DNA of 64,000 nucleotides from Escherichia coli (GTDB taxonomy: Bacteria > Pseudomonadota > Gammaproteobacteria > Enterobacterales > Enterobacteriaceae), in NCBI RefSeq assembly GCF_024502345.1, contig NZ_JALDNN010000001.1, one strand, 5' to 3'. The position numbers and the translations under genes were made by a program. Of this stretch, positions 1 through 10,269 are shown piece after piece (within the stretch, counting starts at the first letter, position 1; each line of letters opens with the position of its first letter). Below the pieces are notes generated by a model, which was not told where the DNA came from, did not search any database, and worked only from the letters and a program-made list of their open reading frames with translations.

Positions 1-1066
1 TGTCGTCTCATTTTCCTTCTCGCTGGATATCGTCAGCGGCGCGGTGGCGATTGTCGGCGGCATTGCCTTACTCCCTTTTCTTTCCCATTCATTAGGTCTG
101 GATGACCAAAGCTTTTGGCTGGCGGCGCTGTATTGCACGCTCATTCCTTCAATGGCTTCCTCCACGCCGACCGGCATTCTGCGTGCGGTAGATCGCTTTG
201 ATTTGATTGCTGTACAGCAGGCGACGAAACCTTTTCTGCGCGCAGCGGGGAGCGTCGTAGCCTGGTATTTTGACTTTGGTTTTGCGGGTTTTGTTATTGC
301 CTGGTACGTGTCGAATCTGGTTGGCGGCACCATGTACTGGTGGTTTGCCGCGCGCGAATTACGCCGCAGAAATATCCATAACGCCTTCAAATTGAATCTG
401 TTTGAGTCTGCCCGACACATTAAAGGCGCGTGGAGTTTTGTCTGGTCAACCAACATTGCCCACTCCATCTGGTCGGCGCGTAACTCGTGCAGCACAGTGT
501 TGGTGGGGATCGTGTTAGGACCCGCTGCCGCCGGGTTATTTAAAATCGCCATGACATTCTTCGACGCCGCCGGAACGCCAGCGGGTTTGCTGGGTAAAAG
601 TTTTTACCCAGAGGTGATGCGTTTAGATCCGCGCACCACCAGACCGTGGTTGTTAGGTGTGAAGTCCGGTTTACTGGCGGGCGGAATCGGTATTCTGGTG
701 GCGCTCGCGGTGTTGATCGTCGGCAAGCCGCTCATTTCGCTGGTGTTTGGCGTTAAGTATCTCGAAGCGTATGACCTGATTCAGGTGATGCTGGGCGCAA
801 TTGTGATCTCGATGCTGGGCTTCCCTCAGGAGTCATTGCTATTGATGGCGGGAAAACAGCGCGCTTTTCTCGTGGCGCAAACCATCGCCTCAATCGGCTA
901 CATCGTATTGCTGTTCATGTTCTGTCATCTGTTTGGCGTGCTGGGAGCAGCGTTTGCTTATTTCGGCGGTCAATGTCTGGATGTGGTGCTTTCGCTAATT
1001 CCGACCTTAAAGGCATTTTTTCAGCGCCATTCCTTGCTTTATAACGCAGCCGGAGAGAAATCCTGA
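1..1066 (+). CDS. Multi-pass membrane protein, MOP/MATE-type polysaccharide or lipid flippase-like; 5' end runs off the window (frame open to position 2, GTG at 44)
   Basis: 340-aa hydrophobic ORF with no in-frame stop upstream to window start; position and strand relative to yghO fit the K-12 yghQ region (assignment from memory, unverified). Confidence 0.55.
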   Translation, partial: VVSFSFSLDIVSGAVAIVGGIALLPFLSHSLGLDDQSFWLAALYCTLIPSMASSTPTGILRAVDRFDLIAVQQATKPFLRAAGSVVAWYFDFGFAGFVIAWYVSNLVGGTMYWWFAARELRRRNIHNAFKLNLFESARHIKGAWSFVWSTNIAHSIWSARNSCSTVLVGIVLGPAAAGLFKIAMTFFDAAGTPAGLLGKSFYPEVMRLDPRTTRPWLLGVKSGLLAGGIGILVALAVLIVGKPLISLVFGVKYLEAYDLIQVMLGAIVISMLGFPQESLLLMAGKQRAFLVAQTIASIGYIVLLFMFCHLFGVLGAAFAYFGGQCLDVVLSLIPTLKAFFQRHSLLYNAAGEKS

Positions 1067-1890
1067 TGATGAGAAAATATTTCCCGCTTGAGGAGAGCGA
1101 GCATCTATTTGTTGCGATTGAGGAAGATGATGTTGTTGATGCCCAGGTCAGTTTGCCGCCGACTATCGCACTATGTTGTACCACCGAAATCATCCATGAT
1201 AATTACGCGTTATGCCTGCAATTCTGGCTCAATGGCGTTGATCGTCAGGAATTACTTCGTTTAATTCGCAAACAAGCCAAAGGCGATGAGCTGACGACAG
1301 ACGAGCGTAAACAGTTTAAATACATGCGAGCGCGCTACAAGCATCTACGTTTTGCACAACGGCTGTATTTAAAGAAGCATCAGGCCAGATTTTTATTCGG
1401 CAAAACGACCGTTTTTCTGGGACGTTTTCAGGACGGATTTCGTAACGGTAAGAAAAATATTGTGTCGTATTACGGCAACCTGTTACGAATTTATTTAAGC
1501 TCTCCGGTCTGGTCGTTGGTGAACTATTCATTACGCCATAGCCAGTTAGAAAGCGTAAGCGGTTTTATTGCCTATCGGCAAAAGCAAATGCATGCCCTGA
1601 AAGAGATAATTGCCAAACCGCGACTAACCGGCAGGGAATTTCATGATGTGCGAAAAATCATCAGCCAGCAGGTTTCTTATTACGACACCTTAAGATCGCT
1701 TGATCCTGAAAATAAAGAGGCGTTACAGATTTCCCGTTTCCTCGCCGCCATTAATGGCCTGATGGGGGATAAACACGACGACATGGTGGCGGATGATATG
1801 GAAAACCGCCAGTCGTATGATGCACCGGTGGCGCTGGATAGCGATATTCGCCAGCGCTTAGAGCTGCTGATTTCGCGTTTTCCGCTATAA
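1066..1890 (+). CDS. Hypothetical protein, lipid-cluster associated
   Basis: 274-aa ORF whose start overlaps the upstream stop (ATGA); no family recognised by eye. Confidence 0.45.
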   Translation: MMRKYFPLEESEHLFVAIEEDDVVDAQVSLPPTIALCCTTEIIHDNYALCLQFWLNGVDRQELLRLIRKQAKGDELTTDERKQFKYMRARYKHLRFAQRLYLKKHQARFLFGKTTVFLGRFQDGFRNGKKNIVSYYGNLLRIYLSSPVWSLVNYSLRHSQLESVSGFIAYRQKQMHALKEIIAKPRLTGREFHDVRKIISQQVSYYDTLRSLDPENKEALQISRFLAAINGLMGDKHDDMVADDMENRQSYDAPVALDSDIRQRLELLISRFPL

Positions 1891-1898
1891 CCGGAGCA

Positions 1899-8786: not shown

Positions 8787-9129
8787 AAATAAAATGACAA
8801 TAATGCGGTGGATTATATAGGCATAAAAGATAAATGAGATAGTATTTTCATCGGTGTGAAAATGAACATTGATTTAAATAATGAGTTTAAGTTTTTTGTT
8901 TTTATTGTGAATGATATTTAATTTATGAATATATTAAGAAGAAGCCTTGTCCGGTCGCCTTAAATCGACAAAAGGCATTGAGGCGCTTCTGTGTAGTCTC
9001 TAACCTTATCATAATCATTAATAAATACTATTTATTCTTTGTTTGTATTCATTGGGTTGATTATTAAGGTGTCGTTCGTTGCTGTTGCAACCTGTTTTTC
9101 ACCGTTAATTATTTGTTATCCACAGAGAT
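8787..9129. promoter_or_regulatory. AT-rich divergent intergenic region between the acyl-AMP ligase operon and yghO
   Basis: 343 bp non-coding, very AT-rich, flanked by divergent gene starts. Confidence 0.3.
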
Positions 9130-10269
9130 ATGGAATGCGATCTGCTGATGATTAAAATTGAAAAAGTAATTAATAAAAATGACCTTAAGGCATTTATCGC
9201 TTTTCCGTCATCACTTTATCCCGACGATCCAAACTGGATACCCCCTTTATTCATAGAACGCAACGAGCATTTGTCTGCGAAAAATCCGGGGACGGACCAT
9301 ATCATCTGGCAGGCGTGGGTGGCAAAAAAAGCGGGGCAGATAGTTGGGCGTATTACCGCGCAAATAGATACCTTGCACCGTGAGCGTTACGGTGAAGATA
9401 CCGGTCATTTCGGCATGATTGACGCCATTGATGATCCGCAGGTTTTTGCCGCGTTGTTTGGCGCAGCGGAAGCGTGGTTGAAGTCACAAGGTGCAAGTAA
9501 GATCAGCGGGCCTTTCAGCCTGAATATCAATCAGGAAAGCGGATTACTGATTGAAGGTTTTGACACACCACCCTGTGCGATGATGCCACACGGCAAACCG
9601 TGGTATGCCGCGCATATTGAACAACTGGGTTATCACAAAGGCATTGATTTACTGGCGTGGTGGATGCAGCGAACCGATCTCACTTTCTCTCCGGCGCTAA
9701 AAAAACTGATGGATCAGGTGCGCAAAAAGGTGACCATTCGCTGCATCAATCGTCAGCGGTTTGCCGAAGAGATGCAGATCCTGCGTGAGATTTTCAACTC
9801 TGGCTGGCAGCACAACTGGGGATTTGTGCCGTTTACCGAACATGAATTCGCGACCATGGGCGATCAACTTAAATATCTGGTGCCGGACGATATGATCTAC
9901 ATCGCTGAGATTGATTCTGCACCCTGCGCGTTTATTGTCGGCTTGCCGAACATCAACGAGGCGATTGCCGATCTGAACGGATCGCTCTTTCCCTTCGGCT
10001 GGGCAAAATTGCTGTGGCGTTTGAAAGTCAGCGGTGTGCGAACTGCGCGAGTACCGCTGATGGGCGTGCGCGACGAGTATCAGTTCAGCCGCATCGGCCC
10101 GGTGATTGCGCTGTTATTGATTGAAGCCTTACGCGATCCGTTTGCCCGCCGGAAGATCGAGCGCTGGAGATGTCATGGATCCTCGAAACCAATACAGGCA
10201 TGAATAACATGCTGGAACGCATTGGGGCGGAGCCGTACAAGCGTTACCGATTGTATGAAAAGCAGATTT
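9130..10269 (+). pseudogene. yghO: YghO-like GNAT-fold acyltransferase; frameshift near 10165 separates the last ~35 codons
   Basis: Frame 1 ends RKIERWRCHGSSKPIQA at 10203; +2 frame continues EMSWILETNTGMNNMLERIGAEPYKRYRLYEKQI to stop at 10267-10269, a typical GNAT C-terminus; consistent with a 1-nt deletion. Confidence 0.6.

What the first reader, a model, noticed from the sequence alone, without database searches (positions are those of the whole stretch)
1..10269. Sphingolipid-like (ceramide/aminolipid) biosynthesis and export cluster next to yghO, with two frameshifts
On one strand: fatty acyl-AMP ligase, SDR-type reductase, dedicated ACP and a serine-palmitoyltransferase-like alpha-oxoamine synthase. 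Divergently: the GNAT-fold protein YghO. Convergently: a flippase-like protein and two LptF/LptG-family permeases. This gene set parallels the enzyme classes of bacterial ceramide synthesis (SPT, ACP, acyl-ACP synthetase, reductase, GNAT-type N-acyltransferase) plus an outer-membrane export module. Such a pathway is not part of textbook E. coli lipid metabolism. Both the SDR (~6940) and yghO (~10165) are frameshifted, so the pathway may be inactive here or the assembly may have indel errors.
Basis: inference. Interest (0 to 1): 0.7.

Follow-up and report, generated by a model that had tools for sequence, protein, structure and literature searches.

The report
E. coli ceramide gene island, decayed
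This is the already published sphingolipid (ceramide) synthesis and transport gene island that about three quarters of E. coli strains carry and K-12 has lost, here with two private single-base frameshifts that most likely switch off ceramide formation.

Summary
Window 1-10271 holds, on the minus strand, spt, a dedicated ACP, an SDR reductase (cerR) and a fatty acyl-AMP ligase. yghO lies divergently. Both frameshifts exist, at 6936 and 10160.

NCBI's pipeline already names the gene spt. The E. coli Spt, ACP and ligase were characterised biochemically in 2022, when yghO and the SDR were named as ceramide-synthesis homologues. The ligase has a crystal structure (3PBK). A 2026 preprint implicates LptF2/G2 in sphingolipid transport in Caulobacter and draws the E. 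coli UTI89 locus.

I compared eight island proteins directly with the Caulobacter locus. YghO is 44% identical to bCerS over its full length.

The island is complete in 4047 of 5426 complete E. coli genomes. Neither frameshift occurs in any of them. Both sit on otherwise intact alleles, in an assembly with no indels over 23 kb against strain G3/10. They are probably real and recent, so this strain probably cannot make ceramide.

Still unknown: the native lipid, and the roles of the Enterobacterales-specific CHAD-like protein, YtfJ2 and the YghRST kinases.

The parts
1..1066 (+). yghQ, a MOP-family flippase. The 5' end is cut by the window start; the full protein is 449 aa in other strains.
   Evidence: The frame is open over 355 codons. 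It matches the MOP flippase NCBIfam model weakly. The full-length protein is 26% identical over 406 aa (E 1.5e-42) to the Caulobacter flippase candidate CC_1166.
1066..1890 (+). 274-aa conserved protein with a CHAD-like all-helical fold.
1902..2462 (+). ytfJ paralogue (YtfJ2), a periplasmic protein with a signal peptide.
   Evidence: TIGR01626 scores 213 bits against a cut-off of 151. It is 54% identical to K-12 YtfJ. It is conserved in the island in Pluralibacter, Hafnia and Sodalis.
2493..3563 (+). lptF2, a second LptF-family permease.
   Evidence: TIGR04407 scores 318 bits against a cut-off of 230, matched over its full length. It is 29% identical to K-12 LptF and 27% to Caulobacter LptF2. 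The coupling-helix Glu is kept in the alignment.
3560..4639 (+). lptG2, a second LptG-family permease. It overlaps lptF2 by 4 bases.
   Evidence: TIGR04408 scores 308 bits against a cut-off of 240. It is 28% identical to K-12 LptG and 24% to Caulobacter LptG2.
4637..4671 (.). 16-bp G+C-rich hairpin between the convergent lptG2 and spt genes, terminator-like. It carries a 1-base loop indel at 4653.
4674..5846 (-). spt, serine palmitoyltransferase. Intact, 390 aa.
   Evidence: NF047599 scores 599 bits against a cut-off of 500. Catalytic residues H137, D210, H213, K244 and R366 align with H159, D231, H234, K265 and R390 of 2jg2. It is 53% identical to Caulobacter Spt.
5846..6094 (-). acpR, the dedicated acyl carrier protein (82 aa).
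   Evidence: Weak ACP family hits. A Ser lies in the LGLES motif (read from the sequence). It is 41% identical to Caulobacter AcpR. The BL21 orthologue was shown to carry 4'-phosphopantetheine (PMC9386255).
6126..7041 (-). cerR (epi), the SDR ceramide reductase gene. It is a pseudogene here through an extra A at 6935/6936.
   Evidence: the frame breaks after residue 35 and stops at residue 41. Removing one A restores a 304-aa protein. The intact protein is 34% identical to Caulobacter CerR (E 7e-38). NDUFA9-like proteins are the best solved relatives.
7038..8726 (-). aasR, the fatty acyl-AMP ligase / acyl-ACP synthetase (EcFAAL). Intact. An alternative start lies at 8759. The stop overlaps the cerR start by 4 bases.
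   Evidence: NF006624 scores 868 bits against a cut-off of 600. It scores 1271 bits over its full length to PDB 3PBK, the E. coli FAAL. It is 43% identical to Caulobacter AasR.
8727..9129 (.). AT-rich divergent intergenic region, the presumed promoter region for aasR-cerR-acpR-spt and for yghO.
   Evidence: G+C falls to 0.41 here; sequence read. Only weak sigma-70-like matches, no more than chance. No Rfam family matches.
9130..10271 (+). yghO (bcerS / aca), the tandem-GNAT bacterial ceramide synthase gene. It is a pseudogene here through a missing T after 10160.
   Evidence: the frame changes at residue 344, giving a 357-aa product. The product lacks E347, W350, L352, N355, K371 and Y373, which are invariant or nearly so in the family. 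The intact protein is 44% identical over its full length to Caulobacter bCerS. Fold.

Best explanation
This is the Enterobacterales version of the bacterial sphingolipid island.

In its intact form the pathway would run as follows. Steps 1 and 2 are shown for the E. coli enzymes in the literature. The rest is inferred from homology with Caulobacter.
1. The ligase AasR/EcFAAL adenylates a free fatty acid and loads it on the dedicated carrier AcpR.
2. Spt condenses acyl-AcpR with L-serine to give 3-ketosphinganine.
3. The tandem-GNAT YghO (bCerS) N-acylates it.
4. The SDR CerR reduces the ketone, giving dihydroceramide.
5. YghQ flips the lipid or a head-group-modified form. An LptF2/G2 permease pair extracts it from the inner membrane, probably powered by the housekeeping LptB because the island has no ATPase gene.

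In this strain two independent single-base frameshifts truncate CerR after residue 35 and remove the conserved C-terminus of YghO. The pathway is most likely blocked after 3-ketosphinganine, if the island is transcribed at all. The island is being lost in this lineage, as it has been lost by deletion in K-12 and in strain G3/10.
For: Family assignments pass curated cut-offs for Spt, FAAL, LptF, LptG and YtfJ.

Eight island proteins have homologues in the experimentally dissected Caulobacter locus, with the same aasR-cerR-acp-spt order. Spt catalytic residues are conserved. YghO is a tandem GNAT.

Published biochemistry:
- E. coli BL21 Spt makes 3-oxo-sphinganine and prefers acyl-AcpR; AasR_Ec acylates AcpR_Ec (PMC9386255).
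- EcFAAL loads EcACP and rejects CoA (PMC8460268).
- Caulobacter LptF2/G2 bind each other and LptB, and could not be deleted; the authors attribute this to build-up of anionic sphingolipid in the inner membrane (preprint).

The same gene set stays together in Serratia, Pluralibacter, Hafnia and Sodalis. Gene order is shuffled and the chromosomal neighbours differ.

Frameshifts:
- Neither indel is present in any of 4120 and 4544 complete E. coli genomes that hold those segments; the best matches differ only by the indel.
- The surrounding alleles are otherwise intact.
- The assembly has 0 indels in 23.3 kb against strain G3/10.
- G3/10 lacks the island altogether.
Against: - No sphingolipid has been reported from any wild-type E. 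coli. I found no such report in four literature searches.
- In the BL21 work, extracts of the empty-vector host gave no 3-oxo-sphinganine although BL21 carries the island. The island may therefore be silent in the laboratory.
- E. coli LptF2/G2 are more similar to E. coli's own LptF/G than to Caulobacter LptF2/G2. Orthology with the tested transporter is not established.
- Without reads, sequencing error cannot be excluded for the two frameshifts. Three single-base indels within 5.5 kb is an odd cluster.
- The window's source genome is not among the RefSeq complete genomes (best match 99.0%).
Confidence: 0.85

Rival explanations
1. The two frameshifts are assembly or sequencing errors, and the island is intact and potentially functional in this strain.
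For: Both are single-base indels, and one lengthens an A to AA. Both alleles are otherwise pristine, as expected for errors as well as for very recent mutations. Neither indel is seen in any other genome. A third single-base indel lies nearby at 4653.
Against: The same assembly shows 7 substitutions and 0 indels over 19,301 bp, plus 3,983 identical bases, against the independent complete genome G3/10. No frameshift occurs in the adjacent 9 kb glc operon. The missing T after 10160 is not in a homopolymer. Loss of this island is common: K-12 and G3/10 have deletions, and USMARC-49610 has a frameshift in the 274-aa gene.
Confidence: 0.3
2. The enzymes make a lipid that is not a classical ceramide. 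Possibilities are a long-chain amino-ketone or amino-alcohol, or an N-acyl product built from an amino acid other than serine. It would serve as a signal or specialised metabolite rather than an outer-membrane lipid.
For: The native product is unknown. [quoted passage not shown] Related alpha-oxoamine synthases make autoinducers: CqsA scores 125 bits. The island lacks the Caulobacter head-group genes CpgABC.
Against: Spt passes the SPT equivalog cut-off and fails the CqsA-type, BioF and Kbl cut-offs. The E. coli enzyme makes 3-oxo-sphinganine from serine in vitro. Full-length homologues of bCerS and CerR are present, as are a flippase and an LptFG pair, which fit a membrane lipid destined for the envelope.
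Confidence: 0.1
3. The lptF/lptG-like pair, yghQ and ytfJ2 are an alternative LPS or polysaccharide-lipid export set. They merely neighbour the sphingolipid genes and have no functional link to them.
For: PGAP names them LPS export permeases LptF and LptG, and names yghQ 'lipopolysaccharide biosynthesis protein'. They pass the LptF and LptG equivalog cut-offs. They resemble E. coli's own LptF/G more than Caulobacter LptF2/G2.
Against: The pair stays with spt and yghO through rearrangements in five genera and in different chromosomal contexts. A 49%-identical YghO homologue on a 4.6-kb contig is followed, after one gene, by an LptF/G pair. Caulobacter and Sphingomonas loci show the same linkage, with genetic and pull-down evidence in Caulobacter. 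E. coli already has an essential canonical lptFG elsewhere.
Confidence: 0.07

Closest known systems
E. coli BL21(DE3) sphingolipid genes ECD_02850-02854 (aca/yghO, aasR, epi, acpR, spt); Padilla-Gomez et al. 2022, PMC9386255. The same locus in UTI89 is drawn in Uchendu, Isom and Klein 2026 (bioRxiv 10.64898/2026.04.12.717747).
   Same: Same species, same chromosomal site next to glcC, and same five genes in the same order. The genomes compared here are 97-99% identical to the window over the island. Spt, AcpR and AasR activities were shown for the BL21 proteins.
   Different: Here cerR (epi) and yghO (aca) each carry a private frameshift. The published work does not discuss the CHAD-like protein, YtfJ2 or YghRST, and does not report a native E. 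coli lipid.
Caulobacter crescentus sphingolipid locus CC_1152-CC_1168 / CCNA_01212-01226 (Spt, AcpR, CerR, AasR, bCerS, LptF2, LptG2, LptC2, flippase candidate CC_1166, CpgABC)
   Same: Eight homologous genes. The aasR-cerR-acp-spt operon order is identical. bCerS and an LptF/G pair lie nearby. No lptB copy is present.
   Different: E. coli lacks CpgA, CpgB, CpgC, LptC2 and the nucleotidyltransferases. Caulobacter lacks the CHAD-like protein, YtfJ2 and the three P-loop kinases YghR, YghS and YghT. LptF2/G2 identity is only 24-27%, so orthology is unresolved.
Canonical LptB2FGC lipopolysaccharide extractor (E. coli lptF/lptG, b4261/b4262; PDB 6MHU)
   Same: Same family and full-length architecture, and both island proteins pass the equivalog cut-offs. 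The coupling-helix glutamate is kept (read from the alignment).
   Different: Only 28-29% identical to the canonical pair. Encoded in the sphingolipid island with no lptB or lptC beside it. Dispensable, since K-12 and G3/10 lack it.
Sphingomonas serine palmitoyltransferases (PDB 2JG2, 2X8U)
   Same: The best solved relatives at 375 bits, aligned end to end with all catalytic residues.
   Different: Position R378 of the Sphingomonas enzyme is Leu in both E. coli and Caulobacter Spt. The E. coli enzyme prefers acyl-AcpR over acyl-CoA.

Membership tests
Bacterial serine palmitoyltransferase (Spt, alpha-oxoamine synthase family) | Scores above the curated SPT equivalog cut-off and below those of BioF, Kbl, ALAS and CqsA | tested here: met
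   NF047599 scores 599 against a cut-off of 500. bioF scores 333 against 426, Kbl 297 against 460, the CqsA-type model 222 against 428.
Bacterial serine palmitoyltransferase (Spt, alpha-oxoamine synthase family) | PLP-binding lysine and the His/Asp/His/Arg catalytic set | tested here: met
   H137, D210, H213, K244 and R366 align with H159, D231, H234, K265 and R390 of 2jg2.
Bacterial serine palmitoyltransferase (Spt, alpha-oxoamine synthase family) | Condenses L-serine with a long-chain acyl thioester to give 3-ketosphinganine | not testable with these tools
   Shown for the BL21 orthologue in PMC9386255. The window protein differs from a reference E. coli Spt at one residue.
AasR / fatty acyl-AMP ligase that loads a dedicated ACP | FAAL subfamily membership and near-identity to the structurally and biochemically characterised EcFAAL | tested here: met
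   NF006624 scores 868 against a cut-off of 600. It scores 1271 bits over its full length to 3PBK. EcFAAL-to-EcACP transfer is shown in PMC8460268.
AcpR (specialised ACP of rhodobacterial sphingolipid synthesis) | Small ACP with a phosphopantetheine-attachment serine, encoded immediately upstream of spt | tested here: met
   82 aa, Ser39 in the LGLES motif, a 1-base overlap with spt, and 41% identity to Caulobacter AcpR.
CerR (bacterial ceramide reductase, NDUFA9-like extended SDR) | Homology to Caulobacter CerR with a GxxGxxG motif and a YxxxK motif, encoded between aasR and acp | tested here: met
   For the repaired or intact allele: 34% identity and E 7e-38 over 287 aa. GATGFIG and Y-x3-K are present. 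NDUFA9 is among the best solved relatives.
CerR (bacterial ceramide reductase, NDUFA9-like extended SDR) | Intact reading frame in this window | tested here: not met
   The extra A at 6935/6936 gives a stop after 41 codons. The downstream ORF lacks the nucleotide-binding motif.
bCerS (bacterial ceramide synthase, YghO family) | Full-length homology to Caulobacter bCerS (CC_1154 / CCNA_01212) | tested here: met
   43.7% identity over 380 aa, E 2e-110, against the bCerS gene of L010.
bCerS (bacterial ceramide synthase, YghO family) | GNAT acyltransferase fold | tested here: met
   The AF2 model has pLDDT 96. The top Foldseek matches are tandem-GNAT proteins at E 1e-15 to 1e-12. No Pfam or PDB match by sequence.
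bCerS (bacterial ceramide synthase, YghO family) | Intact reading frame in this window | tested here: not met
   The missing T after 10160 replaces residues 344-380. The lost residues include invariant N355 and nearly invariant E347, W350, L352, K371 and Y373.
LptF2/LptG2 sphingolipid transporter (Caulobacter CCNA_01214/01213) | LptF- and LptG-family permease pair encoded in a sphingolipid locus, in addition to a canonical lptFG | tested here: met
   TIGR04407 and TIGR04408 are passed. The pair is adjacent to spt. A canonical lptFG exists at another E. coli locus.
LptF2/LptG2 sphingolipid transporter (Caulobacter CCNA_01214/01213) | Orthology with the Caulobacter pair rather than an independent duplication of lptFG | tested here: inconclusive
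   E. coli F2 and G2 score 84 and 129 bits against K-12 LptF and LptG, but 44 and 70 bits against Caulobacter F2 and G2. Caulobacter F2 and G2 score slightly higher against E. coli F2/G2 than against K-12 F/G. No tree was made, and the canonical Caulobacter LptFG was not fetched.
LptF2/LptG2 sphingolipid transporter (Caulobacter CCNA_01214/01213) | Binds LptB and is needed for sphingolipid export | not testable with these tools
   Shown only for Caulobacter (preprint). The island has no ABC ATPase gene.
CHAD domain (polyphosphate-binding helical domain), for the 274-aa protein | Two-fold helical-bundle CHAD fold | tested here: met
   [not shown]
CHAD domain (polyphosphate-binding helical domain), for the 274-aa protein | Detectable by the Pfam CHAD profile | tested here: not met
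   No Pfam match even at E 10 apart from noise. Foldseek against the PDB is not significant.

The most novel reading that the evidence does not exclude
The Enterobacterales island makes an anionic, phosphate-rich sphingolipid rather than plain ceramide. It would carry its own lineage-specific head-group and trafficking parts, none of which has a counterpart in the Caulobacter locus:
- three paralogous P-loop kinases (YghR, YghS, YghT), which would phosphorylate the lipid;
- a cryptic CHAD-like protein, which would bind the phosphate-rich head group or polyphosphate;
- a periplasmic YtfJ paralogue, which would act as the still-unknown periplasmic carrier between LptF2/G2 and the outer membrane.

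All five genes stay with spt and yghO through rearrangements in five genera.
Probability: 0.2. Interest if true: 0.6.

Novelty: already known. Interest (0 to 1): 0.25.

Why it matters
The main value of this check is to close the finding. The cluster is real and correctly read, but it has already been published, is partly characterised biochemically, and is annotated by the standard NCBI pipeline.

What remains open is biological. About 75% of complete E. coli genomes keep a full ceramide pathway with its own Lpt-like transporter, yet no E. coli sphingolipid has ever been reported. K-12, the reference for E. coli lipid biology, has deleted the island.

The comparative result obtained here narrows where to look for the missing head-group and periplasmic transport steps. 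It is a fixed 13-gene set that includes a CHAD-like protein, a YtfJ paralogue and three P-loop kinases, all absent from Caulobacter.

This particular strain is a poor model for such work, because two of the five core genes are broken.

Tried and rejected
- **Shigella or a cryptic Escherichia clade as the source** (suggested by the 99.0% best match). Rejected: window 39.6-64 kb is essentially identical to E. coli G3/10.
- **YghR/S/T as homologues of the Caulobacter ceramide kinase CpgB.** Rejected: CpgB is a DAGK/LCB5-family kinase. YghR/S/T are distant dTMP-kinase-like P-loop proteins with no match in the Caulobacter locus.
- **Relaxed selection on cerR** (7 nonsynonymous against 10 synonymous differences from strain FDAARGOS_943). 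Rejected as evidence of decay: the window allele is nearly identical to the intact allele of USMARC-49610.
- **Sequence-only searches for YghO.** Pfam, NCBIfam and PDB found nothing. Only the structure model showed the GNAT fold.
- **Other libraries.** Rfam and PADLOC scans of the region found nothing.
- **Promoter scan.** No more matches than chance.
- **Stankeviciute et al. 2022 (Nat Chem Biol).** Could not be read.

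
Full report
**What is in the sequence**

The first 10.3 kb of the window hold eleven genes; their coordinates and evidence are in the parts list.
- Five lie on the plus strand: yghQ (cut by the window start), a 274-aa gene, a ytfJ-family gene, and lptF-like and lptG-like genes. They converge on a 16-bp hairpin at 4637-4671.
- Four lie on the minus strand: spt, an 82-aa ACP gene, an SDR gene and a fatty acyl-AMP ligase gene.
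- A 400-bp AT-rich spacer follows (G+C 0.41).
- yghO is transcribed divergently, followed by glcC.

It missed the 274-aa gene and the ytfJ-family gene.

**Frameshifts**

I aligned the window with intact alleles of two complete E. coli genomes. The only coding indels are an extra A at 6935/6936 in the SDR gene and a missing T after 10160 in yghO. A third indel lies in the loop of the intergenic hairpin at 4653.
- The first stops the SDR after 41 codons, just past its GATGFIG nucleotide-binding motif.
- The second replaces YghO residues 344-380. The lost stretch contains the family-invariant N355 and the nearly invariant E347, W350, L352, K371 and Y373.
- Repairing one base in each restores proteins that differ from the reference proteins at 7 and 1 residues.

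**What the genes are**

Curated NCBIfam models give these scores:

| Gene | Model | Score (bits) | Cut-off (bits) |
|---|---|---|---|
| spt | serine palmitoyltransferase | 599 | 500 |
| spt | BioF | 333 | 426 |
| spt | Kbl | 297 | 460 |
| ligase | fatty acyl-AMP ligase | 868 | 600 |
| lptF-like | LptF | 318 | 230 |
| lptG-like | LptG | 308 | 240 |
| ytfJ-family | YtfJ | 213 | 151 |

Further evidence for each enzyme:
- Spt aligns end to end with Sphingomonas SPT 2jg2. All catalytic residues are kept: H137, D210, H213, K244 and R366.
- The ligase is essentially the protein crystallised as E. coli FAAL, PDB 3PBK.
- YghO has no Pfam, NCBIfam or PDB sequence match. A confident model (pLDDT 96) is a tandem GNAT.

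**Direct test against the characterised system**

I recovered the Caulobacter sphingolipid locus using a published cpgB primer sequence and then an exact-protein look-up. BLASTP of the E. coli island against it gave:

| E. coli protein | Caulobacter protein | Identity | E-value |
|---|---|---|---|
| Spt | Spt | 53% | 2e-147 |
| ligase | AasR | 43% | 1e-155 |
| YghO | bCerS | 44%, full length | 2e-110 |
| SDR | CerR | 34% | 1e-36 |
| ACP | AcpR | 41% over 51 aa | 2e-11 |
| YghQ | flippase candidate CC_1166 | 26% | 1.5e-42 |
| LptG2 | LptG2 | 24% | 9e-17 |
| LptF2 | LptF2 | 27% over 172 aa | 3e-8 |

The aasR-cerR-acp-spt order is the same in both organisms.
- E. coli has no homologue of CpgA, CpgB, CpgC or LptC2.
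- Caulobacter has none of the 274-aa protein, the YtfJ paralogue or YghR/S/T.
- E. coli LptF2/G2 are more similar to E. coli's own LptF/G (84 and 129 bits) than to the Caulobacter second pair (44 and 70 bits). A common origin of the two second pairs is therefore not established.

**What was already known**

- PGAP names the gene 'spt: serine palmitoyltransferase' in E. coli genomes.
- Padilla-Gomez et al. 2022 (PMC9386255) worked with the BL21 genes ECD_02850-02854. They showed that AcpR carries phosphopantetheine, that AasR_Ec acylates AcpR_Ec, and that Spt_Ec makes 3-oxo-sphinganine and prefers acyl-AcpR. They named the SDR (epi) and yghO (aca) as homologues of the dihydroceramide genes.
- EcFAAL-to-EcACP transfer and rejection of CoA are shown in PMC8460268.
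- Olea-Ozuna et al. 2024 named LptC2, LptF2, LptG2 and a flippase in the Caulobacter locus.
- Uchendu, Isom and Klein (2026 preprint) report that LptF2 and LptG2 could not be deleted, which they attribute to build-up of anionic sphingolipid in the inner membrane. They also show that the two proteins bind each other and LptB. Their Fig. 2B draws the E. coli UTI89 locus.
- I found no report of a sphingolipid from wild-type E. coli.
- In the BL21 study, empty-vector host extracts made no 3-oxo-sphinganine although BL21 carries the island. This fits a silent island with an AT-rich regulatory region. The silencing is my inference.

**Distribution**

- 4753 of 5426 complete E. coli genomes match some part of 1-11200.
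- 4047 genomes cover at least 80% of it.
- K-12 derivatives keep only yghQ and yghO around an IS5.
- All island proteins are 62-84% identical between E. coli and Pluralibacter or Serratia.
- Serratia, Pluralibacter, Hafnia and Sodalis keep the same gene set next to different chromosomal neighbours, with three different internal orders. The set is yghT, yghS, yghR, yghQ, the 274-aa gene, ytfJ2, lptF2, lptG2, spt, acp, cerR, aasR and yghO. Where a fetched locus ends inside the island, not every gene could be seen.
- More distant YghO homologues also sit beside transport genes. One is followed, after one gene, by an LptF/G pair. Another lies divergent from a ligase-SDR-ACP-synthase operon that ends in an MsbA-like exporter.

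**Are the frameshifts real?**

- Neither indel occurs in any of the 4120 and 4544 complete genomes that hold those segments. The best matches differ from the window only by the indel.
- The alleles are otherwise nearly identical to intact ones. Against strain USMARC-49610 there are 0-1 mismatches across each gene. Each is therefore a single recent event or an error.
- The assembly looks accurate. Window 44700-64000 differs from the independent complete genome G3/10 by 7 substitutions and no indel. Window 39590-43572 is identical to it.
- The adjacent glc genes compared (glcC, glcD, glcE, glcF) have no frameshift, and glcB and glcA give full-length ORFs.
- Decay of the island is common. G3/10 lacks the island and the glc operon, K-12 has a deletion, and USMARC-49610 has its own frameshift in the 274-aa gene.
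- I rate real mutations at about 0.65-0.7. Only reads can settle it.

**New details from this check**

- YtfJ2 is a 54%-identical paralogue of K-12 YtfJ and has a signal peptide.
- YghR, YghS and YghT are three paralogous P-loop kinases only distantly like dTMP kinase.
- Hafnia places an Sfp-type phosphopantetheinyl transferase next to yghO. Serratia and Sodalis place dgkA there.
- Together these hint at a phosphorylated head group and a lineage-specific periplasmic step. This is inference only.

**Verdict**

- The finding is already known.
- This copy is most likely a recently inactivated one.

Noticed in passing
window 39590-64000: This part of the window is essentially identical to E. coli strain G3/10 (a Symbioflor commensal). 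Window 39590-43572 has no difference and 44700-64000 has 7 substitutions and no indel. At the corresponding site G3/10 lacks the whole sphingolipid island and the glc operon: an IS1 sits next to a truncated yghT.
   Followed up: yes
[not shown]
   Followed up: partly
L011 1367-2190 (E. coli USMARC-49610): An otherwise intact island in another strain carries its own frameshift in the 274-aa gene (PGAP note 'frameshifted'). Independent decay of island genes therefore occurs in other strains too.
   Followed up: no
L016 19427-20152 (Hafnia alvei); L002 11354-11716 (Serratia); L017 17823-18182 (Sodalis): Hafnia has an Sfp-type 4'-phosphopantetheinyl transferase gene directly after yghO. Serratia and Sodalis have a dgkA-family lipid kinase gene directly after yghO, and in Sodalis it lies between yghO and yghR/S/T. 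These are possible accessory functions of the island.
   Followed up: no
window 4637-4671: A 16-bp G+C-rich hairpin lies exactly between the convergent stops of lptG2 and spt. Its loop is one base shorter (AA instead of AAA) than in the two E. coli genomes compared.
   Followed up: partly
window 20000-44000: After glcA, where other strains have sslE and the gsp genes, lies a mosaic genomic island. It contains a chemoreceptor-like gene (21400-23082, minus strand), integrase fragments, a type I restriction-modification system with DUF927 and DUF262 genes (about 26-39 kb), and CP4-57-like remnants (GTPase, DUF932). Its best E. coli matches are only 94-96% identical and lie at other chromosomal sites.
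   Followed up: partly
window 45000-59100: This stretch holds a truncated cytochrome bd-II subunit I gene followed by appB, cbdX and appA, then the ykgEFG-dld-lactate permease cluster. It is bounded and interrupted by ISKpn26 and IS1B and carries several gene fragments. In G3/10 a second, degraded copy of the app segment lies 38 kb upstream.
   Followed up: no
window 2493-4639: NCBI's equivalog models and PGAP name these second-copy permeases 'LPS export ABC transporter permease LptF/LptG'. They are only 28-29% identical to the essential E. coli LptF/G. The name is probably an over-annotation of function.
   Followed up: partly
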